Below, piece by piece: positions 565 through 59,530 of a stretch of 64,000 nt of DNA; the stretch's first letter is position 1; each line of letters starts with the position of its first letter. Location: the NCBI GenBank assembly GCA_021811585.1, contig JAJZOG010000005.1:725-64724 (forward strand). The letters run 5' to 3'. A program made the position numbers and the translations under genes. The stretch is from a bacterium (GTDB lineage: Bacteria; Patescibacteriota; Doudnabacteria; UBA920; VMFF01). The notes below the pieces were generated by a model. That model was not told the origin of the DNA. It saw nothing but the letters and a program-made list of their open reading frames with translations, and did no database searches.

Positions 565-571
565 AAAATAG

Positions 572-678
572 CTGATAGTTAGTAGTTGGTAGTTAATAGT
601 TAATAGTTATGGCGATTTCGCCTACCAACTGCCACCTATTAACTGTCACCTATTAACTACCAACTACTAACTATCAAT
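572..678. repeat. Heptamer-array hairpin element 1, (TAGTTRR)n / (YYAACTA)n inverted
   Basis: The rpsS-rplV spacer (about 118 nt) is filled by a run of TAGTTGG/TAGTTAA units, then ATGGCGATTTCGCC, then a run of CTACCAA/CTACTAA units. The outer 27 nt of the two arms are perfectly complementary. Confidence 0.85.
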
Positions 679-4190: not shown

Positions 4191-4306
4191 TCCAACTCCC
4201 AACTCCCACCTATCAACTCCCAACTCCCAACTACTATCTACCAACTATTATCTACCAACTACCAACTACCAACTACTAACTACTAACTATCAATCACTAA
4301 CCACCA
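4191..4306. repeat. Heptamer-array element 2, one orientation only, (CCAACTM)n
   Basis: TCCAACTCCCAACTCCCACCTATCAACTCCCAACTCCCAACTACTATCTACCAACTA... with strict 7-nt periodicity. It fills the rplE-rpsH spacer. Confidence 0.85.
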
Positions 4307-4310
4307 ATTT

Positions 4311-4706
4311 ATGTTTACCGATCCAATTTCAGACATGTTAACAAGAATACGAAATGCGGCAGCTGCCAAAAAAGCAGAGGCAATTATGCCGTATTCCAAG
4401 CTGAAGCACGGCCTCGCGGACATCATGCTCGAAGAGGGTTATATTTCCGGAGTGGCTGTGCGCGAAAGCGGCTCGTTTAAGCAATTGGAGGTAAAGCTAA
4501 AGTATGATAAAGACGGAGGTGCGATTATAATGGGCATAAAGAGAATCAGTAAGCCGGGGCAGAGAATTTACGTTCCGGTTTCTGAAATCCCAAAATCAAA
4601 CGGAGGGCTTGGCATAACAATACTCTCCACTTCAAAGGGATTGATGACAGACCGCAAAGCCCGTAAGGAAAAGTATGGCGGCGAAGTAATTTGCCAATTA
4701 TGGTAA
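4311..4706 (+). CDS. rpsH: 30S ribosomal protein S8
   Basis: MFTDPISDMLTRIRNAAAAKK is the hallmark uS8 N-terminus. Confidence 0.95.
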   Translation: MFTDPISDMLTRIRNAAAAKKAEAIMPYSKLKHGLADIMLEEGYISGVAVRESGSFKQLEVKLKYDKDGGAIIMGIKRISKPGQRIYVPVSEIPKSNGGLGITILSTSKGLMTDRKARKEKYGGEVICQLW

Positions 4707-4715
4707 CCTTAACTC

Positions 4716-4800
4716 TTAATTCCCACCTACCAACTTCCAACTACCAACTATCATCTGCCAACTATCATCTATCAACTACCATCTATTAACTACCAACTAA
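4716..4800. repeat. Heptamer-array element 3, (CCAACTA / CCATCTA)n
   Basis: CCACCTACCAACTTCCAACTACCAACTATCATCTGCCAACTATCATCTATCAACTACCATCTATTAACTACCAACTAAC lies directly upstream of the rpsN ATG. Confidence 0.85.
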
Positions 4801-4801
4801 C

Positions 4802-4996
4802 ATGGCCAAGAAATCATTAATTGCAAAAGCGAAAAGATCGCGGATCAACCCCAAATTTAAGACCAGGGTTGTCAGGCGGTGCTGGAAATGCGGCCGCAAT
4901 CGCGGCTATATGCGCGATTTCGATTTGTGCAGAATTTGTTTCCGCGAGCTTGCTTCCAAAGGAGAAATCCCTGGAATTGTGAAATCGTCCTGGTAA
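4802..4996 (+). CDS. rpsN: 30S ribosomal protein S14 type Z (zinc-binding)
   Basis: 61 aa, ...[33 protein letters not shown] (CxxC...CxxC); close to Bacillus RpsZ. Confidence 0.95.
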
Positions 4997-5574: not shown

Positions 5575-5719
5575 TCAACTACCATCTATCACCTACTAAG
5601 TCCTAACTACCATCTATCAACTACCAACTACCATATACCAACTACCGCCGCTCACCAACTATTAACTACCATCTATCAACCCCCAACTATCAACTACCAT
5701 CTACCAATTATCAACTACT
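5575..5719. repeat. Heptamer-array element 4, (CTACCAW / CTATCAA)n
   Basis: The roughly 145-nt rplF-rplR spacer consists of CAACTACCATCTATCACCTACTAAG...CTACCATCTACCAATTATCAACTACT. The six-frame ORF 5557-5856 that reads through it (TTIYHLLSPNYHL...) is an artefact. Confidence 0.85.
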
Positions 5720-8402: not shown

Positions 8403-9077
8403 ATGTTCAAATACCAAGCAATTATTTTTATCGGTCCGCAAGGTTCCGGGAAAGGAACCCAAGCCCGGCTGTTGATACCGAAAATAAGCGCAGAGTACGT
8501 GGAAATGGGCTATGTTTTGCGCACGATTGCGGCAAGCGGGACGGCATTCGGCGACCAAATCAAGCAAACCATTGATGGCGGCAACCTTGTTTCGGACAAG
8601 ATTTTGGAAAAAATAATTACCGAGAAGCTTGCGACACTCTCGCCGGACGCCCCGGTAATTTTTGACGGCGTGCCAAGGATGCTCCATCAGGCGGAATTTT
8701 TGATCGCGGATTTAAAACGCCTTGGCCGCGGCGCAATCGCAACTATTTTTATAGATCTTCCGCGAGACGCGGGCATTCAAAGAATCTTGACGCGTTTTTC
8801 ATGCCAAAACTGCAAAGCCCCGAAAACTTATGCCGGAGACGACGCCGCCGCGTGCGCGCGTTGCGGCGGCGTGATGGTGCGCAGAGTTGACGATTCCAGC
8901 GAGGAAGCTGTGGAGCGGCGCCTGGATACTTACGAGAGGGAAACTTTGCCTGTTTTGGATTATCTGAAAACAACAACGGATTTTTTCACCATCGACGGCA
9001 GGCCTTCTGTGCCTGAGGTTGAAAAGCAAATAGATAATTGCCTGGAGATAGAGCATGCCAAAACGCCGAGCAATTAA
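8403..9077 (+). CDS. adk: Adenylate kinase, long form with zinc-finger LID
   Basis: IFIGPQGSGKGTQARLL P-loop. LID has CQNCKAPKTY...CARCGG (C4). Confidence 0.9.
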   Translation: MFKYQAIIFIGPQGSGKGTQARLLIPKISAEYVEMGYVLRTIAASGTAFGDQIKQTIDGGNLVSDKILEKIITEKLATLSPDAPVIFDGVPRMLHQAEFLIADLKRLGRGAIATIFIDLPRDAGIQRILTRFSCQNCKAPKTYAGDDAAACARCGGVMVRRVDDSSEEAVERRLDTYERETLPVLDYLKTTTDFFTIDGRPSVPEVEKQIDNCLEIEHAKTPSN

Positions 9078-9732
9078 AAATGCGCCCGCCAAAGATGCGC
9101 CGGCGCTTAATTTGATTTTTTTGGGCGATCCGGCCTCTGGAAAAGCCACCCAATCAGCGCGCATTATGCGCAAATTTCCGATGCACAGCGTTGATTTTGG
9201 AAAATTTTTGCGCACTGCCCAGCATTCCAAGAGCAAAAATCCAGTTTACATAAAAATCAGGCAAGCCATGCGTAGAACTTATAATTTAGGCAAACCCTTT
9301 CCCACAAATTTTGCGCGGGAATATTTTAAAAAACAAATTTTTAGCGTGCCGAAAAACAGGGGGATTCTTTTTGATGGCAATCCGAAAATGCTCGGGGAAG
9401 CCAGATTGGTCCGCAAATGGATGCAAAAAAGCGGCAGGACAAAAAATTCGGTTCTGGTTTTGTATTTGCATATACCTTACGGCGAGGCCTTGAGCAGAAT
9501 TTCCAAGCGAAAAGAAAAAATAAACGGCAAATATATACGCCGCAGCGATGATGATATTGCCGCGTTGAAGAACCGCGTCGAATATTTCAGGGTGCACATC
9601 CCCGCGGTTTTGAAATTTTTAGCCGGACATTATGCCTTCAAGAAAATAAGCGGGCTCGGCAGCCGCGCCGAAGTTTACCGGAGAATAGAAAAGGAGATAA
9701 ATGAGTTTAATAAAAGACGAAAAGGAAATTAA
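9055..9732 (+). CDS. Second, divergent adenylate/NMP-kinase family paralog
   Basis: LIFLGDPASGKATQSARI P-loop. Overlaps adk by 23 nt and map by 32 nt. No zinc finger. Confidence 0.6.
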   Translation: MPKRRAIKNAPAKDAPALNLIFLGDPASGKATQSARIMRKFPMHSVDFGKFLRTAQHSKSKNPVYIKIRQAMRRTYNLGKPFPTNFAREYFKKQIFSVPKNRGILFDGNPKMLGEARLVRKWMQKSGRTKNSVLVLYLHIPYGEALSRISKRKEKINGKYIRRSDDDIAALKNRVEYFRVHIPAVLKFLAGHYAFKKISGLGSRAEVYRRIEKEINEFNKRRKGN

Positions 9733-10459
9733 TTTTCTCCGCGAAGGCGGAGCGATTTTGGCTGATATCCTCAGGCGTACCGCGGCCCTGGCGCTGGCCG
9801 GCGTGAGCACTTTCGAGCTTGATAAATTCGCTGAAAAAGAGATTTTGAAATCAGGCGGAACCCCGGCTTTCAAAAATTACGGCGACAAGAGAAACCCTTT
9901 TCCGGCGGCATTGTGCACATCCATAAATTCCGAAATTGTCCACGGCATTCCATCCAAAAAAATTATATTGCGCGAGGGTGATATCGTAAGCTTGGATATT
10001 GGCATGAAATACAAAGGCCTGTACACTGATACGGCTTTAACGGTTGGGGTCGGGAAAATTTCCGCGGAAGCGCAGCGGCTTTTACAGGTTACGGAAAAAG
10101 CGCGCGATTTGCAGGTTGCTGCGGTTTGTCCTGGCAGAACCATAGGCGATATCGGCCATGTCGCGCAGAAATATATAGAGGGGCAGGGTTTTGCGGTTGT
10201 CCGGGATTTGGTCGGCCACGGAATTGGCTACCAGCTTCATGAGGAGCCGCAAGTGCCTTCGTATGGCCAACCCGGGAGGGGCGCGGTTTTAAAAGAGCGT
10301 ATGGTTATTGCCATTGAACCCATGGTCACAGCAGGGAAATATTCTATAATTATTGAAGATGACGGCTGGACCATTTGTACTGCCGACAATTCACTTGCCG
10401 CACATTTTGAGCACACTATTATTGTTACAAAAACCGGCGCCGAAGTCCTGACAAAATAA
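9701..10459 (+). CDS. map: Methionine aminopeptidase type I
   Basis: ...DIVSLDIGMKYKGLYTDTALT...HGIGYQLHEEP... shows the MetAP metal-ligand pattern. Confidence 0.9.
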   Translation: MSLIKDEKEINFLREGGAILADILRRTAALALAGVSTFELDKFAEKEILKSGGTPAFKNYGDKRNPFPAALCTSINSEIVHGIPSKKIILREGDIVSLDIGMKYKGLYTDTALTVGVGKISAEAQRLLQVTEKARDLQVAAVCPGRTIGDIGHVAQKYIEGQGFAVVRDLVGHGIGYQLHEEPQVPSYGQPGRGAVLKERMVIAIEPMVTAGKYSIIIEDDGWTICTADNSLAAHFEHTIIVTKTGAEVLTK

Positions 10460-10655
10460 GGGTCCAACCCAATACCCCAACCTAAACCCCCAACCCAAAC
10501 CCCCAACCTAAACCCCTAATCCAAACCCCCAATCTAAGGATATTTATGCAATATATAAGGGAAACTCAATTAAAATATTATTAAAACACTTGCCTAAACA
10601 CCGCAATCGTGTCCTTAGATTGGGGTATTAGATTGGGGTATTGGGTTGGACCCGT
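10460..10655. repeat. TIR-bounded palindromic element: 21-bp perfect terminal inverted repeats enclosing (AACCYAAACCCCC)n 13-mer arrays and an AT-rich core
   Basis: GGGTCCAACCCAATACCCCAA at 10460-10480 is the exact reverse complement of TTGGGGTATTGGGTTGGACCC at 10635-10655. The left arm has 5.5 tandem 13-mers. The right arm has 2 units in the opposite orientation. Confidence 0.85.
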
Positions 10656-12443
10656 ATGAAAAAAACTAAAAATTTTAACCAATCTTGGGATCTTTCGGAG
10701 CTTTACAGTGGCGTGAATGATCCGAAGATATTTAAGGATTTGGCTGCTTTAGAAAAACGCGCGGAAAATTTCGAAAAGGAACATAAGGGCAAAGTGGCTG
10801 CCTATGGATTACCGCGGACACTCGCAGCAGTAAAAGAATTCGGCAAAATCCAGGAAAAACTACGTTTGCCCGTGGCTTTTGCTGAGCTTAGTTTTGCTGT
10901 TGACGGCGCAAATGTACAAATCAATTCCTTAAATCAAAAAGTCCAGGTGCAGTGCAGTGAAATACGCAACCATATAATCTTTTTTCCGCTTGAGCTGGGA
11001 AAGAATAAAAATCTCGCGGAGTTTGCAAAAAGCAAAAAGGCGCGGCCATTCAATATCCTTTTCAAAGATTTACTGGAAAATCGCAAATACCAGCTTTCGT
11101 TTGCCGAAGAGAAAATAATCAATATCAAAGCCACCACTTCTTCTGCCGGATGGATTCGGCTGCATGAAAAGCTGGAAAGCTCGCTGCGCATTAAATTAAA
11201 AAACAGTTTTGGAGAAATCAAGGAGCTTACTTTAGAGGAGGCCTTAAATTTTTCCCATTCGCCTAAAAGGCAGGAGCGCATTGCTGCTGCGCAGGGGATT
11301 TCGAACGCGTTGAAAGGCAATTTAGAAGTTTCTTCGCACATATATAATATGATTTTGCTCAATAAAGCTCGGGAAGATAAATTGCGCAATTGGCCATATC
11401 CCGAATCGCAGAGGCATGCCGCAAATTCTTTGAGTAAAAAGAGCGTGGATGCGCTGGCTGCTGCAACGCGGGAACATTTTGGCCTGGTTCCAAGATATTA
11501 CAAGCTCAAAAGGAAACTTTTGAAGTTAGACCGCCTTTTCGATTATGACAGGTATGCTCCGTTGCCGCAGAAGAGCGAAAGCAAATATACTTTTGAGCAG
11601 GCGGTCAAGGTTGTGCGGGCGGCATTCCACGCGTTTGATCCGGAATTCGAAAAATATTATTTGGATATTTTGGCTGCCGGGCATGTTGATGTCGTCCCGC
11701 GCAAAGGCAAACGCGCCGGCGCGTTTTGCGCTCACATGCCGCATCCGCATTTGCCGTATGTGCTTTTGAACCATGCGGGCAGCGGGAGGGATGTTGAAAC
11801 CCTTGCGCATGAGATGGGGCACGCTGTGCACGATTGTTTTGCCGAAAAGAATCCTTTTTTGGTAGCGCATCCGCCCTTGGCGCTTGCGGAAACGGCGAGC
11901 GTCTTTGGCGAGATGCTGGTATTTGAGTATTTGCTTGCGTCCGCCAAAACTAAAGCAGAACAGATTGCTTTGATTGCCGCGAAAATTGATATAATTTTTG
12001 CCACGATTCCCCGCCAAATATCCATGTTTTTTTTCGAACGCAAAGTGCATGATTTTGTCCGGCAAAACGGCGAGATCCCCGCGGAAAAAATAAATGAATT
12101 TTGGATGCAAATTCAAAGGGAAATGTTCGGCGACAGCGTGACCATCACTGAAAACTATTCTGTATGGTGGTCGTATATAATCCATTTCTTCGAGGTCCCG
12201 TTTTATACCTATGCTTATGCATTCGGAAATTTGTTGGTTTTTTCTTTATACGAACAATACAAAGAAGGCGCGCCAGGATTTGTGGAAAACTACAAAACCT
12301 TGCTTTCATTGGGCGGTGCAAAAACGCCTGCGCAGGCCTTGCAAACTTTCGGCTTTGATATAGAGAGAAAGGAATTTTGGCAAAGCGGCTTTAAAGTATT
12401 GGAAAAACTTATTGAACAGCTCGAATCCCTGTGCTATCATTAA
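10656..12443 (+). CDS. pepF: Oligoendopeptidase F (M3 family zinc metallopeptidase)
   Basis: HEMGHAVHD zinc motif. Length about 595 aa. Start moved to ATG 10656 (MKKTKNF) because the 10641 ATG lies inside the inverted repeat. Confidence 0.85.
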   Translation: MKKTKNFNQSWDLSELYSGVNDPKIFKDLAALEKRAENFEKEHKGKVAAYGLPRTLAAVKEFGKIQEKLRLPVAFAELSFAVDGANVQINSLNQKVQVQCSEIRNHIIFFPLELGKNKNLAEFAKSKKARPFNILFKDLLENRKYQLSFAEEKIINIKATTSSAGWIRLHEKLESSLRIKLKNSFGEIKELTLEEALNFSHSPKRQERIAAAQGISNALKGNLEVSSHIYNMILLNKAREDKLRNWPYPESQRHAANSLSKKSVDALAAATREHFGLVPRYYKLKRKLLKLDRLFDYDRYAPLPQKSESKYTFEQAVKVVRAAFHAFDPEFEKYYLDILAAGHVDVVPRKGKRAGAFCAHMPHPHLPYVLLNHAGSGRDVETLAHEMGHAVHDCFAEKNPFLVAHPPLALAETASVFGEMLVFEYLLASAKTKAEQIALIAAKIDIIFATIPRQISMFFFERKVHDFVRQNGEIPAEKINEFWMQIQREMFGDSVTITENYSVWWSYIIHFFEVPFYTYAYAFGNLLVFSLYEQYKEGAPGFVENYKTLLSLGGAKTPAQALQTFGFDIERKEFWQSGFKVLEKLIEQLESLCYH

Positions 12444-24020: not shown

Positions 24021-24078
24021 ATGGTAGTGGTAGTTGGTAGTTGGTAGATGGTAGATGGTAGATGGTAGTTGGTGTTGA
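24021..24078. repeat. Heptamer-array element 5, (GGTAGTTGG / GGTAGATGG)n in the opposite orientation to elements 2-4
   Basis: ATGGTAGTGGTAGTTGGTAGTTGGTAGATGGTAGATGGTAGATGGTAGTTGGTGTTGATA lies in the pgk-gpmI spacer. Confidence 0.85.
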
Positions 24079-32273: not shown

Positions 32274-32390
32274 CTAGTTAATAGTTGGTAGTTAGTAGTT
32301 AATAGTTAGTAGTTGGTAGTTAATAGTTGGGGGGCGATCCATCTGCCACCTACCACCTACTAACTACTATCTACCAACTACCACTTATCC
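32274..32390. repeat. Heptamer-array hairpin element 6, inverted arms around a GGGGGGCGATCCATCTGCCACC core
   Basis: CTAGTTAATAGTTGGTAGTTAGTAGTTAATAGTTAGTAGTTGGTAGTTAATAGTTGG, then the core, then ACCTACCACCTACTAACTACTATCTACCAACTACCACTTATCC. Lies directly upstream of the frr ATG. Confidence 0.85.
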
Positions 32391-42946: not shown

Positions 42947-44221
42947 ATGCTGGACATAAAATTTATCCGTGAAAATCCGGAGGCAGTAAAACAGGGTGCG
43001 GCCGCGAAAAATGCGGACGTGGATGTTTATCGGGTAATTGAAATTGACGAGAAGCGCCGCTTGCTTTTGTCGCAGCTGGAATCCCTGCAGGCAACCAAAA
43101 ATTCCGTGTCCAAAGAAATTCCAAAACTTTCCCCCGCGGACCGCGAGGCAAAGATTTTGGAAATGAAAAACGTAGACGTGCAATCGGAAAAAGTGCGCGC
43201 CGAATTGGATGCCGCTGAAAAAGAATTTAACGCTCTGATGCTGAATATCCCGAACTTGCCGAAAGAAGACGTCAAGATAGGCAAGGATGACAGTGAAAAT
43301 TACGTTATTCGCACCGCAGGAGAACCAACCAGGTTTCCGTTCAAGCCCAAAGATTATATGGAATTGGGCGCTGCTTTGGATATAATCGATACCGAGCGTG
43401 CCGCAAAAACTTCGGGTGCGCGCTTTGGCTTCCTCAAAGGCGGCGGCGCGCTTTTGGAAATAGCCATTTTGAATTTCACAATCGCAAAGCTTTTAAAGCA
43501 CGGCTTCAAACTTATTTTGCCGCCGTACATGGTTAAAGAGGAAATCATGCGCGGCATGGGATATTTGGAACACGGCGGCATTGAAGAAGTGTACTATTTG
43601 GAGAAAGACGGCTTGTATTTGATAGGCACATCAGAGCAGGTCATCGGCGGAATGCATGCCGGAGAAATTTTAAAAGCAGAGGATTTGCCCCTTCGCTATG
43701 CGGGCTTTTCTTCGTGTTTCAGGCGCGAGGCGGGCTCTTATGGAAAAGATACCAAGGGAATTCTGCGCGTGCACCAGTTCGACAAAATTGAAATGTTTTC
43801 ATTCACAACTCCGCAAGAGAGCGATAAGGAGCATGATTTTTTGCTCTCCGTTGAAGAGGAACTAATGCGGGATCTGAAATTGCCTTACCAGGTTTTGGGA
43901 ATTTGCAGCGGAGATTTGGGCGACAGCGCCGCGCGCAAATACGACATTGAAACCTGGATACCTTCCCAGGAAAAATACCGCGAAACCCATTCCACTTCCA
44001 CGACAACGGATTTTCAATCCCGGCGGCTGAACATCCGCTATAAAAACAAAGAAACAGGCAAAAACGAGCTCGTGCACATACTTAACGGTACGGCTTTTGC
44101 AATGGGCAGAATTATTATTGCCATTATTGAAAATTATCAGCAGGAAGACGGCTCGGTAAGAATTCCCGAAGTTCTCCAGCCGTACATGTTCGGCGTGAAT
44201 AAGCTGGTAGTTGGTAGGTAG
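42947..44221 (+). CDS. serS: Seryl-tRNA synthetase
   Basis: MLDIKFIRENPEAVKQ N-terminal coiled coil. Class II core ...FRREAGSYGKDTKGILRVHQF... Confidence 0.9.
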   Translation: MLDIKFIRENPEAVKQGAAAKNADVDVYRVIEIDEKRRLLLSQLESLQATKNSVSKEIPKLSPADREAKILEMKNVDVQSEKVRAELDAAEKEFNALMLNIPNLPKEDVKIGKDDSENYVIRTAGEPTRFPFKPKDYMELGAALDIIDTERAAKTSGARFGFLKGGGALLEIAILNFTIAKLLKHGFKLILPPYMVKEEIMRGMGYLEHGGIEEVYYLEKDGLYLIGTSEQVIGGMHAGEILKAEDLPLRYAGFSSCFRREAGSYGKDTKGILRVHQFDKIEMFSFTTPQESDKEHDFLLSVEEELMRDLKLPYQVLGICSGDLGDSAARKYDIETWIPSQEKYRETHSTSTTTDFQSRRLNIRYKNKETGKNELVHILNGTAFAMGRIIIAIIENYQQEDGSVRIPEVLQPYMFGVNKLVVGR

Positions 44222-44408
44222 TAGGTAGTAGCTGATAGTTGGTAGTTAGTAGGTGGTAGTTGGTAGTTGGTAGGTAGTAGTTGGTAGTTGGTAGGTAGTA
44301 GTTGATAGTTGGTAGGTAGTAGTTGATAGTTAGTAGTTAGTAGGTGGTAGTTAGAAGGGAATTTAGTTTGCGTCGCTGTTTTTATCTTAACTACCATCTA
44401 TTATCTAC
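44213..44408. repeat. Heptamer-array element 7 (longest): about 140 nt of GGTAGTTGG units with a 21-nt super-period, plus a short inverted CTACCATCTA segment
   Basis: GGTAGGTAGTAGTTGGTAGTT / GGTAGGTAGTAGTTGATAGTT repeated. It yields the spurious minus-strand ORF 44137-44397 (PTNYQLL)n. Starts at the serS stop codon. Confidence 0.85.
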
Positions 44409-54445: not shown

Positions 54446-55042
54446 ATGATTCGCCTCCCCAAATCAATAGAAAAACTTATAAATGAATTTTCAAAATTGC
54501 CGGGCATAGGCCAAAAAACAGCCCACCGCCTGGCATTTTATCTTTTAAAGCGTCCGGAAGTTGATCTGCAAATTTTTTCCGAAGCACTGGCGAATTTAAA
54601 GAAAGAAGTTTTTTTTTGTGCGGTTTGCCGCAACATGTCGGATACTGAAGTTTGTGCGGTGTGTGCCGATGCTTCGCGCGACAACGGCATTATCTGCGTT
54701 GTTGAGGAACCGCTGGATGCCCAGGCAATAGAACAAACAGGGTTTCGCGGCACTTATCATATTTTAGGCGGTGTAATTTCCCCGCTGGACGGCATTGGGC
54801 CCCAGCAGCTTAATATTGATTCTCTGGTTGGCAGGATTAAAGGGAAAAGCATCAAGGAAGTTATTTTAGCAACAAATCCGTCTTTGGAAGGGGAAGTGAC
54901 ATCCATGCAGCTGGTTGAGCTTATAAGGCCTTTGGGCGTCAAAATAACGCGCCTGGCGCGAGGCCTGCCTGTTGGCGGGGACATCGAATACTCTGATGAG
55001 GTGACTATTTCCAGGGCCATGGAAGGCAGAAAAGAAATATAG
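54446..55042 (+). CDS. recR: Recombination protein RecR
   Basis: LPGIGQKTAHRLAFYLL HhH. C4 zinc finger CAVCRNMSDTEVCAVC. Toprim domain. Confidence 0.95.
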   Translation: MIRLPKSIEKLINEFSKLPGIGQKTAHRLAFYLLKRPEVDLQIFSEALANLKKEVFFCAVCRNMSDTEVCAVCADASRDNGIICVVEEPLDAQAIEQTGFRGTYHILGGVISPLDGIGPQQLNIDSLVGRIKGKSIKEVILATNPSLEGEVTSMQLVELIRPLGVKITRLARGLPVGGDIEYSDEVTISRAMEGRKEI

Positions 55043-55043
55043 A

Positions 55044-55186
55044 TGATAGTTGGTAGATGGTAGATGGTAGTTGGGGGCCGATCCAACTACTAACTACTAA
55101 CTATCAACTATTTTTTATCGCCAACTACTAACTACCAACTACTAACTACCAACTATTAGCTACCAACTACTAATTGCCAACCCGCA
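55044..55186. repeat. Heptamer-array hairpin element 8, inverted arms around GGGGGCCGATCC, then a further direct CCAACTA array
   Basis: GATAGTTGGTAGATGGTAGATGGTAGTTGG, then GGGCCGATCC, then AACTACTAACTACTAACTATCAAC, then ...CCAACTACTAACTACCAACTACTAACTACCAACTATTAGCTACCAACTACTAATTGCCAA. Starts 2 nt after the recR stop. Confidence 0.85.
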
Positions 55187-59209: not shown

Positions 59210-59530
59210 ATGGCAAGATTGTTCGTAGGTGACCTCCCTTGGGCCACCACCAATGAAGAGCTTTCAGAGCTTTTCAGTAAAGCAGGTCAGGTTATGTCCG
59301 CAACCATAGTTCAGGACAAAATGACAGGTAAAAGCAGGGGATTTGGTTTTGTGGAAATGTCCGACGGGGATGCTTCCAAAGCAATTGAAATGCTAAACGG
59401 CCAGGAATATGGCGGAAGGAAATTGGTTGTCAATGAAGCAAAACCAAGAGAAGACCGCCCGCGCAGATCATTCGGAGGCGGCCGCGGAGGTTATGACAGA
59501 GGTCATGGCCGCAGCGATTATAACGATTAA
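59210..59530 (+). CDS. RRM-type RNA-binding protein with a Gly/Arg-rich C-terminal tail
   Basis: RNP2 LFVGDL and RNP1 RGFGFVEM. C-terminus RRSFGGGRGGYDRGHGR. Confidence 0.85.
   Translation: MARLFVGDLPWATTNEELSELFSKAGQVMSATIVQDKMTGKSRGFGFVEMSDGDASKAIEMLNGQEYGGRKLVVNEAKPREDRPRRSFGGGRGGYDRGHGRSDYND

What the first reader, a model, noticed from the sequence alone, without database searches (positions are those of the whole stretch)
10460..10655. 196-bp element with perfect 21-bp terminal inverted repeats and internal C4A2-like 13-mer arrays between map and pepF (MITE-like)
GGGTCCAACCCAATACCCCAA at 10460-10480 is the exact reverse complement of 10635-10655. Inside the left end, AACCYAAACCCCC repeats 5.5 times. 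The right end carries two copies in inverted orientation (TATTAGATTGGGG). The centre is AT-rich (about 80 nt). The structure is that of a miniature inverted-repeat element or a large cruciform or hairpin. It sits directly after the map stop codon and overlaps the annotated pepF start (10641), forcing a start at 10656. This is a different family from the heptamer arrays. The resemblance of the unit to Tetrahymena telomeric CCCCAA is presumably coincidental.
Basis: seen in the sequence. Interest (0 to 1): 0.55.

Follow-up and report, generated by a model that had tools for sequence, protein, structure and literature searches.

The report
Single-copy repeat-built hairpin between map and pepF
A real 194-bp insertion, made of 13-base tandem repeats arranged as a long hairpin, fills the gap between two housekeeping genes of an uncultured CPR-like bacterium; no second copy or target-site duplication was found, so it looks like a locally grown hairpin within an operon, not a demonstrated jumping element.

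Summary
The element is real, but the right repeat lies at 10633-10653, not 10635-10655, so it spans 10460-10653 (194 bp). Both arms start with GGGTCC+AACCCAATACCCC and end with AATCTAAGGA. The left arm has five 13-nt units, the right has two, and a 71-nt centre (72% AT) separates them. As RNA it folds at -74 kcal/mol (z = -8.5), placing the map stop codon and the pepF start codon at the base of the stem.

Relatives keep the adk-adk-map-pepF-htrA order but have spacers of 6, 26 and 58 nt, so the element is lineage-specific. I found no other copy in about 84 kb of this genome or in the four public collections searched. There is no convincing target-site duplication, and no transposase, recombinase or internal promoter.

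Three heptamer-array hairpins of the same architecture lie elsewhere in the window. The start codons of pepF and L22, each just downstream of such a hairpin, are the two least accessible of 58.

Best reading: a hairpin formed in place by inverted duplication and slippage, transcribed between the two genes, which makes pepF translation depend on map translation or on RNA cleavage. MITE membership is not established. Interest is modest.

The parts
10460..10653 (+). Whole element (194 bp): left arm, AT-rich centre, right arm
10460..10480 (+). Left terminal inverted repeat GGGTCCAACCCAATACCCCAA (GGGTCC, first 13-nt unit, then AA)
   Evidence: exact match; 0 matches in any of 100 shuffles
10633..10653 (-). 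Right terminal inverted repeat, exact reverse complement of 10460-10480
10466..10530 (+). Left array of five 13-nt units: AACCCAATACCCC, AACCTAAACCCCC, AACCCAAACCCCC, AACCTAAACCCCT, AATCCAAACCCCC. It shows 26-nt periodicity. Its antisense strand is G-quadruplex-prone.
   Evidence: (periods 13 and 26)
10486..10526 (+). About three surplus left-arm units, which form a 41-nt bulge in the predicted RNA hairpin
   Evidence: dot-bracket
10527..10543 (+). Left strand of the inner stem (17 pairs in RNA; 14 exact Watson-Crick pairs at 10527-10540); contains AATCTAAGGA
10541..10611 (.). Centre or loop, 71 nt, 72% AT.
10609..10625 (+). Right strand of the inner stem
10615..10640 (+). Exact 13-nt tandem duplication TTAGATTGGGGTA x2 in the right arm
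   Evidence: (D5)
10457..10459 (+). map stop codon TAA, at the base of the stem (U and A of the codon are paired in the fold)
10656..10658 (+). pepF start codon ATG, 2 nt after the right repeat; A and U pair with 10456-10457 in the fold
9701..10459 (+). map (methionine aminopeptidase, Peptidase_M24), the upstream gene
10656..12443 (+). pepF (M3 oligoendopeptidase F), the downstream gene

Best explanation
The element is a single-copy, lineage-specific palindromic insertion between two genes of one operon, built from a 13-nt repeat. It is the 13-mer counterpart of the heptamer-array hairpins that fill other gene-to-gene spacers in this genome.

Origin (inferred). A roughly 29-nt inverted duplication formed first: GGGTCC-AACCCAATACCCC-AATCTAAGGA around an AT-rich centre. 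Each arm then grew separately by replication slippage. The left arm grew in 26-nt steps to five units. The right arm gained one exact 13-nt duplication to reach two units.

Action (inferred from geometry). The element is co-transcribed with map and pepF. The RNA folds into a hairpin of about -74 kcal/mol that loops out the 194 nt and sets the map UAA and the pepF AUG side by side at the stem base. The genome rarely uses Shine-Dalgarno sites and relies on open AT-rich leaders, so the buried pepF start should be poorly available for independent initiation. A ribosome terminating at the map stop would melt the lower stem and free the AUG (translational coupling or re-initiation). Alternatively, cleavage of the 21-28-bp perfect duplex by a double-strand RNase (RNase III type) would separate and unmask the pepF message.

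What is shown: the anatomy, its absence from relatives, the single copy in the DNA that could be reached, the lack of an internal promoter or terminator, and the low predicted accessibility of the start. What is inferred: co-transcription, coupling, cleavage and the mode of origin. The element may have no adaptive function and may simply be tolerated because the hairpin keeps stop and start close together.
For: - Anatomy and significance of the hairpin.
- Both arms share identical outer (GGGTCC + unit 1) and inner (AATCTAAGGA) ends and differ only in unit number. The right arm has a 100% tandem duplicate and the left arm a 26-nt period. This fits slippage after an inverted duplication.
- The paired blocks are pure Watson-Crick (21/21 and 14/14). 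That points to a recent DNA-level origin, not long selection on RNA.
- Relatives with the same gene order have spacers of 26, 58 and 6 nt and no arrays. map is 252 aa in this genome and in the two nearest relatives, so the insertion is exactly intergenic.
- No sigma-70-like promoter and no terminator inside the element. All neighbouring genes are co-oriented with tiny spacers.
- Only 15 of 59 starts have even a loose Shine-Dalgarno match.
- Among 58 starts, pepF (P unpaired 0.21) and L22 (0.14), both just downstream of array hairpins, are the two least accessible. L22 is an essential ribosomal protein inside the S10 operon, so such hairpins evidently do not prevent translation.
- Three other stop-hairpin-start or stop-hairpin arrays with z of -4.3 to -9.5 lie in the window.
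Against: - There are no transcript data, so co-transcription, coupling and cleavage are untested.
- Only about 84 kb of the genome could be searched, so other copies (true mobility) are not excluded.
- The closest relative found is distant (60% PepF identity), so an empty site in a close relative, which would date or type the event, is missing.
- The 13-mer unit and the orientation differ from the heptamer hairpins: here the C-rich arm comes first and the G-rich arm abuts the start codon. 'Same class' therefore rests on architecture only.
- Two assemblies break at the element although it holds no repeated k-mer of 24 nt or more. This is unexplained and could point to heterogeneity that this model does not predict.
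Confidence: 0.5

Rival explanations
1. It is a genuine MITE: a non-autonomous transposon mobilised in trans, with further copies and a parent insertion sequence elsewhere in the roughly 90% of the genome not visible here.
For: - Perfect 21-bp terminal inverted repeats, small size, no coding capacity and a very stable fold.
- Present here but absent from the syntenic spacers of relatives.
- Its orientation is opposite to that of the heptamer hairpins, as expected of something that can insert either way round.
Against: - No second copy, even with up to 4 mismatches, in about 84 kb of the same genome. None in GTDB genomes (array-pattern scan only), JGI metagenomes, IMG/VR, plasmids or phages; every hit was chance or low-complexity.
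- No direct repeat abuts the perfect repeat ends (AA| ... |GT). Only an uninformative AAA appears if the ends are moved outward.
- No transposase in the window or flanks.
- The terminal repeat is just the first unit of the internal array.
- The element fills a 0-2-nt gap exactly between a stop and a start codon, which would be an improbable random target.
Confidence: 0.2
2. It is a DNA or RNA quadruplex / i-motif element. The telomere-like C4-5 tracts form a G-quadruplex on the template strand of the left arm (with an i-motif on the sense strand). This competes with the hairpin and modulates transcription or replication at the end of the ribosomal-protein operon.
For: - The antisense strand of the left arm is the only G3+ N1-9 x4 motif in 64 kb on either strand. 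It has the highest G4Hunter score in the window (2.12), and the right arm is second (1.68).
- G-rich intergenic repeats that form quadruplexes in vitro are a described bacterial class (PMC4692102).
Against: - It is a single locus, not a genome-wide class: no similar array in 84 kb.
- The unit is 13 nt, not the GGGNATC-type heptamer, and its position and strand preferences differ from those reported in PMC4692102.
- Every G tract has a perfectly complementary C tract in the other arm or strand, so a duplex or hairpin should win.
- The motif is absent from relatives, so it is not an ancestral control site.
Confidence: 0.1
3. It is an invertible DNA switch (inverton): site-specific recombination between the 21-bp inverted repeats flips a promoter-bearing centre to turn pepF on or off.
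For: - Perfect inverted repeats flank about 150 bp directly upstream of a gene.
- Two assemblies break at the element without any internal repeat of 24 nt or more, as could happen with mixed orientations.
Against: - No promoter-like site on either strand inside the element.
- No recombinase or invertase in the window or flanks.
- The contig junction (node 10542-10682; Logan contig end at 10488) does not coincide with the edge of either repeat pair, where orientation variants would diverge.
- pepF is a housekeeping peptidase in a conserved operon.
Confidence: 0.03
4. It is an integron attC-like recombination site. The ends contain GTCCAAC ... GTTGGAC, which formally fit the attC core consensus RYYYAAC / GTTRRRY.
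For: Direct reading of the sequence. The consensus itself is from my own knowledge of integron attC sites.
Against: - A 7-nt degenerate consensus inside a 21-nt inverted repeat is expected by chance at the level of a few percent.
- No integrase and no cassette array; the flanking genes are core genes in conserved order.
- At 194 bp it exceeds the usual 57-141 bp.
Confidence: 0.02

Closest known systems
Pneumococcal BOX elements (boxA-boxB(n)-boxC); listed in PMC3184786, module details from my own knowledge
   Same: An intergenic, non-coding, modular element. Its two ends are complementary, and an internal unit is tandemly repeated a variable number of times. It folds into a stable RNA hairpin when co-transcribed.
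   Different: BOX is a multi-copy family (over 100 copies per genome) with defined A, B and C modules of 45-59 nt. Here only one copy is known, the repeat unit is 13 nt, and the repeats make up the arms themselves.
Correia / NEMIS elements of Neisseria, and ERIC of enterobacteria (MITEs; PMC3184786)
   Same: 100-160-bp elements with 20-26-bp terminal inverted repeats. They often lie next to or between genes and are transcribed into mRNA hairpins. From my own knowledge, Correia hairpins are RNase III substrates. This is the best analogue for how the present element probably behaves in RNA.
   Different: Those are high-copy, have TA target duplications, and carry IHF sites or promoters. None of these was found here.
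Mycobacterial interspersed repetitive units (MIRU); from my own knowledge
   Same: Tandem-repeat insertions confined to spacers inside operons and arranged so that translational coupling between flanking genes is preserved.
   Different: MIRUs are 46-101-nt direct repeats carrying small ORFs that overlap the neighbouring stop and start codons. They are not hairpins and they are multi-locus.
Intergenic heptamer direct repeats, TAACTGA type (MacGregor 2015, PMC4679880)
   Same: Short tandem repeats placed within a few nucleotides of start codons, including inside ribosomal-protein operons, in genomes with few canonical ribosome-binding sites. This matches the CCAACTA arrays of this window and the genomic setting of the 13-mer element.
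   Different: Those are almost always direct repeats (169 direct sets against one indirect) of a 7-nt unit. The present element has a 13-nt unit and is palindromic.
G-quadruplex-forming GGGNATC / GGGGAYT repeats of Xanthomonas and Nostoc (Rehm 2015, PMC4692102)
   Same: G-tract tandem repeats between co-oriented genes. They are transcribed and quadruplex-capable.
   Different: Those are heptameric, occur at hundreds of loci, and show a different strand and position bias. Here it is one locus with a complementary arm.

Membership tests
Bacterial MITE (criteria as in PMC3184786) | Terminal inverted repeats flanking a short non-coding core | tested here: met
   21/21 perfect repeat at 10460-10480 / 10633-10653; 194 bp. 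The only ORFs are a 12-codon chance ORF in the loop (read directly from the sequence) and the tail of an 89-aa antisense ORF at 10237-10506 that mostly overlaps map.
Bacterial MITE (criteria as in PMC3184786) | Flanking target-site duplication (direct repeats) | tested here: not met
   The flanks are ...AAAATAA|GGGTCC and GGACCC|GTATGAA. No shared bases abut the perfect ends. Only AAA/AAA appears if the ends are moved to 10456/10657, which is uninformative in an A-run.
Bacterial MITE (criteria as in PMC3184786) | Multiple dispersed copies in the genome | tested here: not met
   No copy (up to 4 mismatches) in the window plus 20 kb of flanks. None in the public collections searched. Only about 84 kb of the genome could be reached, so this is not exhaustive.
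Bacterial MITE (criteria as in PMC3184786) | Terminal repeats matching those of an autonomous insertion sequence / a transposase acting in trans | tested here: inconclusive
   No transposase Pfam hit in any gene of the window or flanks. The rest of the genome was not seen.
Bacterial MITE (criteria as in PMC3184786) | Filled versus empty sites in related genomes | tested here: inconclusive
   Relatives have spacers of 6-58 nt without the element. They are only 47-60% identical in PepF, so this cannot separate insertion from growth in place.
Tandem-repeat hairpins of this genome (heptamer-array hairpins at 567-677, 32275-32388, 55040-55113) | Tandem array, loop, then inverted array, filling a spacer between co-oriented genes from stop codon to start codon | tested here: met
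   stop-to-stem and stem-to-start distances are 0-17 nt in three of the four.
Tandem-repeat hairpins of this genome (heptamer-array hairpins at 567-677, 32275-32388, 55040-55113) | Heptamer unit TAGTTGG/CCAACTA, with the G-rich arm first and the loop motif GGGGSCGATCC | tested here: not met
   The unit is 13 nt, the C-rich arm comes first, and the 71-nt AT-rich loop is unrelated. Only the CCAAC core is shared.
Invertible promoter switch (inverton) | Promoter inside the segment bounded by the inverted repeats | tested here: not met
   No promoter-like site on either strand within 10460-10653.
Invertible promoter switch (inverton) | Site-specific recombinase; both orientations present in the population | tested here: inconclusive
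   No recombinase in about 84 kb. The assembly break points do not sit at the repeat edges.
Intrinsic (Rho-independent) terminator | GC-rich stem followed directly by a U-run | tested here: not met
   The stem is followed by GUAUGAAAAAAA, and the scan found no terminator there.
Integron attC site | R''/R' core sites RYYYAAC ... GTTRRRY | tested here: met
   GTCCAAC at 10462-10468 and GTTGGAC at 10645-10651. This is a weak, degenerate criterion.
Integron attC site | Adjacent intI integrase and an array of mobile cassettes; length 57-141 bp | tested here: not met
   No integrase; core genes in conserved order; length 194 bp.
G-quadruplex-forming intergenic repeats (PMC4692102) | Four or more G-tracts of at least 3 separated by short loops | tested here: met
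   Antisense strand of the left arm, for example GGGGGTTTGGGTTGGGGGTTTAGGTTGGGG. It is the only such motif in the window, with G4Hunter 2.12.
G-quadruplex-forming intergenic repeats (PMC4692102) | Heptameric GGGNATC-type unit, present at many loci | tested here: not met
   13-nt unit at a single locus.
Any curated RNA family (Rfam 15) | Match at or above the gathering score | tested here: not met
   Nothing at gathering thresholds. Only generic long-hairpin miRNA-precursor models at 34-36 bits against cut-offs of 120-230.

The most novel reading that the evidence does not exclude
This CPR-like lineage may have evolved a system of tandem-repeat hairpins placed exactly between the stop and start codons of adjacent genes (S19|L22, map|pepF, the gene upstream of RRF). 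The hairpins would act as programmed 'stop-start bridges'. They would bury the downstream start so that translation is strictly coupled to the upstream gene, or gated by a double-strand RNase or a repeat-binding protein. In a genome that hardly uses Shine-Dalgarno sites, open CA-rich heptamer arrays would do the opposite and enhance initiation. The 13-mer element would be a second, independently arisen module of this system, with an added hairpin/quadruplex alternative.
Probability: 0.1. Interest if true: 0.6.

Novelty: new member of a known kind. Interest (0 to 1): 0.3.

Why it matters
On its own this is one more intergenic palindromic repeat, so the value is limited. It does show that the spacers of a very compact, uncultured CPR-like genome are being filled with repeat-built hairpins, even inside the ribosomal-protein operons. 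Those hairpins span exactly from stop codon to start codon. If they enforce translational coupling or RNA processing, they would be a simple, testable example of how inserted repeats are tolerated, or put to use, in operons of organisms that initiate translation without Shine-Dalgarno sites. In practical terms, the element breaks short-read assemblies and misleads start-codon calling (TTG 10641 versus ATG 10656).

Tried and rejected
- **Other copies.** I searched the window, all loci from the same organism with up to 4 mismatches, and blastn-short with both the centre and the whole element. I also ran the array pattern against GTDB genomes: 3 hits, all unrelated AAAACCC-type low-complexity arrays in a Verrucomicrobia MAG, a Shewanella and a Bacteroidia MAG. 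The TIR 19-mer against JGI metagenomes gave 1 hit, inside a GC-rich 947-aa ORF. An 18-mer against IMG/VR gave 3 chance hits. Plasmids and phages gave none.
- **Rfam.** Nothing at gathering thresholds; only generic long-hairpin models at E-value level.
- **Promoter or terminator in the element.** None found.
- **Replication origin (iterons plus an AT-rich region).** Rejected. Cumulative GC skew rises monotonically across the window with no switch, and there are no dnaA/dnaN genes nearby.
- **Coding or read-through extension of map.** A 13-nt period is not a multiple of 3, and a stop follows 19 codons after the TAA. map is 252 aa here and in the two nearest relatives.
- **Strain variation.** The Logan contig L017 is 100% identical to the ENA contig, so no second strain was available.
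- **Assembly breaks.** I tried to explain them by internal repeats. No k-mer of 24 nt or more recurs in the element, so the breaks remain unexplained.
- **Naming the organism.** Cluster look-up returned no names. The lineage is judged CPR/Patescibacteria-like only from the absence of L30, the gene content, and the Patescibacteria label on some homologues.
- **One failed look-up.** The PBP2 gene look-up failed, probably because of a wrong start codon.

Full report
**Observation**

GGGTCCAACCCAATACCCCAA lies at 10460-10480, and its exact reverse complement lies at 10633-10653, not 10635-10655. None of 100 dinucleotide-preserving shuffles of the window gave any match. The element is therefore 194 bp. 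With one mismatch the repeat extends to ATA(A/C)GGGTCC, that is 10456-10458 pairing with 10655-10657.

Tandem Repeats Finder reports a 13-nt period with 5.3 copies at 10464-10532, with a 26-nt super-period. It also reports an exact 13-nt tandem duplicate, TTAGATTGGGGTA x2, at 10615-10640.

Read unit by unit, the two arms are:
- Left arm: GGGTCC | AACCCAATACCCC | AACCTAAACCCCC | AACCCAAACCCCC | AACCTAAACCCCT | AATCCAAACCCCC | AATCTAAGGA.
- Right arm (reverse complement): GGGTCC | AACCCAATACCCC | AATCTAATACCCC | AATCTAAGGA.

The arms thus share identical outer and inner ends and differ by three units. The centre, 10541-10611, is 71 nt and 72% AT.

As RNA the region folds at -74.2 kcal/mol (shuffles -40.5 +/- 4.0, z = -8.5). 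The fold has an outer stem of 3+21+4 pairs, a 41-nt left bulge made of the surplus units, and an inner stem of 17 pairs. As DNA, z = -6.8. An independent ENA contig contains the identical complete element.

**Setting**

The window is a compact stretch with nearly all genes on the + strand. It holds the S10-spc ribosomal-protein cluster, secY, two adk genes and map, followed by pepF, htrA, ruvX and sugar-phosphate metabolism genes. S5 is followed directly by L15 with no L30 gene. The best named homologues include Patescibacteria.

The map stop codon TAA (10457-10459) touches the left end of the element. The pepF ATG (10656) lies 2 nt after the right end. The TTG at 10641 is inside the right arm, and the 595-aa product from the ATG is the one on record.

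**Comparison with relatives**

The closest PepF homologues among about 5.8 billion clustered proteins are only 60%, 48% and 47% identical. Their contigs keep the order adk-adk-map-pepF, and htrA-ruvX follows wherever the contig extends far enough. Their map-pepF spacers are 26, 58 and 6 nt and have no similarity to the element. Their syntenic regions also lack tandem arrays.

map is 252 aa here and in the two nearest relatives. The element is therefore a lineage-specific, strictly intergenic gain and not a conserved regulatory hairpin.

**Copy number and mobility**

- No second copy of the terminal repeat (up to 4 mismatches) or of the 13-mer unit exists in the window or in 20 kb of extra flanks from the same organism, about 84 kb in all.
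- A degenerate two-unit pattern scanned over 185,579 species genomes gave three unrelated CA-rich low-complexity arrays.
- The terminal repeat scanned over JGI metagenomes and IMG/VR gave only chance hits inside coding sequence.
- Plasmid and phage collections gave nothing.
- No direct repeat abuts the perfect ends.
- No transposase, integrase or invertase domain occurs in any gene of the window or flanks.

Measured against the MITE criteria summarised by Delihas (PMC3184786), the element meets 'terminal repeats, small, non-coding, stable fold'. It fails 'target duplication' and, as far as could be tested, 'multiple copies'.

**Relation to the heptamer arrays**

The window holds many (CCAACTA)n / (TAGTTGG)n arrays. 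Three of them are hairpins with the same plan as the 13-mer element: array, loop, then inverted array, filling a spacer from stop codon to start codon or terminator. They lie at 567-677 (S19|L22), 32275-32388 (upstream of RRF) and 55040-55113. Their RNA fold energies are -51.8, -46.2 and -40.6 kcal/mol, with z from -4.3 to -9.5.

The 13-mer element differs from these in three ways: its unit, its long AT-rich loop, and its orientation (C-rich arm first). It resembles them in architecture, and its arrays begin with the same CCAAC core.

Each arm carries its own recent duplications: an exact 13-mer on the right and a 26-mer period on the left. Both paired blocks are pure Watson-Crick. From this I infer an inverted duplication of about 29 nt followed by independent slippage in each arm. 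Long-term selection on an RNA helix would be expected to leave G-U pairs or compensated changes, and none are seen.

**Likely action**

Nothing promoter-like or terminator-like lies within the element on either strand, so read-through from map is the default expectation. The genome rarely uses Shine-Dalgarno sequences: 15 of 59 starts have even a loose match. Leaders are typically AT-rich and open.

I ran partition-function folding of the -230 to +40 region for 58 starts:
- The two least accessible initiation regions are those just downstream of array hairpins: L22 at 683 (mean P unpaired 0.14) and pepF at 10656 (0.21).
- Three of the five most accessible are the starts preceded by single-stranded CCAACTA arrays, at 4311, 5720 and 4802 (0.74-0.81).

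L22 is essential, so such hairpins cannot block expression. The simplest mechanism is that a ribosome finishing the upstream gene melts the stem base, which holds both the stop and the next start, and hands over to the downstream AUG. Cleavage of the 21-28-bp perfect duplex by a double-strand-specific RNase is the alternative. Both are inferences, because no transcript data were available. The element may equally be non-adaptive and merely tolerated because the hairpin loops the insert out.

**Other readings considered**

- G-quadruplex. The antisense strand of the left arm is the only canonical four-tract G-quadruplex motif in the 64-kb window. It has the top G4Hunter score (2.12), and the right arm is second (1.68). 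This links the element loosely to the quadruplex-forming intergenic repeats of Xanthomonas and Nostoc (PMC4692102). The unit, the copy number and the presence of a fully complementary arm argue against that as the main role.
- Inverton. This is unlikely: there is no internal promoter and no recombinase, and the assembly break points are not at the repeat edges.
- attC site. The ends formally fit the attC core consensus, but there is no integrase or cassette context.
- Replication origin, coding extension and curated RNA families were all excluded.

**Unexplained**

The Logan (k=31) contig stops at 10488. Two MEGAHIT k141 contigs meet in a shared 141-mer at 10542-10682. The element contains no repeated k-mer of 24 nt or more, so the reference sequence itself does not explain these breaks. 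They suggest read-level heterogeneity in unit number, or poor sequencing through the hairpin. Only read mapping can tell.

**Verdict**

This is a real, statistically strong, lineage-specific palindromic element built from a 13-nt tandem repeat, sitting between two genes of one operon. It works most like co-transcribed bacterial MITE or BOX hairpins, but it does not pass the membership test for a MITE. It is best seen as another member of this genome's repeat-hairpin population. Novelty: new member of a known kind. Interest: about 0.3. The genome-wide pattern of stop-to-start repeat hairpins and open CA arrays in a CPR-like organism that rarely uses Shine-Dalgarno sites is the more interesting lead.

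Noticed in passing
window 4192-4308, 4723-4799, 5576-5718: Single-stranded (CCAACTA)n arrays fill the spacers right up to the ATGs of S8, S14 and L18 inside the spc operon. These starts have no Shine-Dalgarno site and are among the most accessible of 58 (P unpaired 0.74-0.81). They resemble the TAACTGA repeats of Beggiatoaceae (PMC4679880).
   Followed up: partly
window 567-677, 32275-32388, 55040-55113: Three heptamer-array hairpins of the form (TAGTTGG)n-loop-(CCAACTA)n, with RNA z-scores of -9.5, -4.3 and -7.8. Two share the loop motif TTGGGGG(G/C)CGATCCA, which suggests common descent. The third is followed by a T-run and looks like a terminator.
   Followed up: partly
window 24021-24077 and 44205-44358: Arrays of (TGGTAGT)n, G-rich on the + strand, directly after stop codons. 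The second (about 150 nt, 21 units) overlaps the end of serS, and the mechanically called start of the next ORF (GTG 44344) lies inside it, so that start is doubtful.
   Followed up: no
L007 and L009 (relatives), whole loci: The syntenic ribosomal-protein and pepF regions of the nearest relatives found (47-60% PepF identity) contain none of the heptamer or 13-mer arrays. The whole repeat population is specific to this lineage.
   Followed up: partly
window 10488 and 10542-10682; also 4264-4293: Independent short-read assemblies break at the 13-mer element and at a heptamer array. The 13-mer element contains no repeated k-mer of 24 nt or more. This suggests heterogeneity or a sequencing problem at the hairpin.
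   Followed up: partly
window-wide starts: Only 15 of 59 genes have even a loose Shine-Dalgarno match within 20 nt of the start. Leaders are mostly AT-rich.
   Followed up: partly
window 8403-9077 and 9055-9732: Two tandem adenylate kinase genes lie between secY and map. The pair is conserved in all relatives examined.
   Followed up: no
window 4311-4987: The gene order is L5-S8-S14-L6, not the usual L5-S14-S8-L6. S14 appears to be a short zinc-type form that the gene callers missed (read from the sequence). There is no L30 between S5 and L15.
   Followed up: no
window 59210-59530: A 106-aa RRM_1 RNA-binding protein. It is a candidate binder of single-stranded repeat arrays, but this is pure speculation.
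   Followed up: no
window 10546-10584: A 12-codon ORF (MQYIRETQLKYY) in the loop of the element, preceded by AAGGA 5 nt upstream. It is probably chance, given the low Shine-Dalgarno usage.
   Followed up: no
L004 7130-7185; L006 760-930: Unrelated bacteria (a Verrucomicrobia MAG and a Bacteroidia MAG) carry intergenic AAAACCC/AACCC-type arrays. In L006 these sit next to a GTGAAAA array. This suggests that C/A-rich intergenic tandem arrays recur widely.
   Followed up: no
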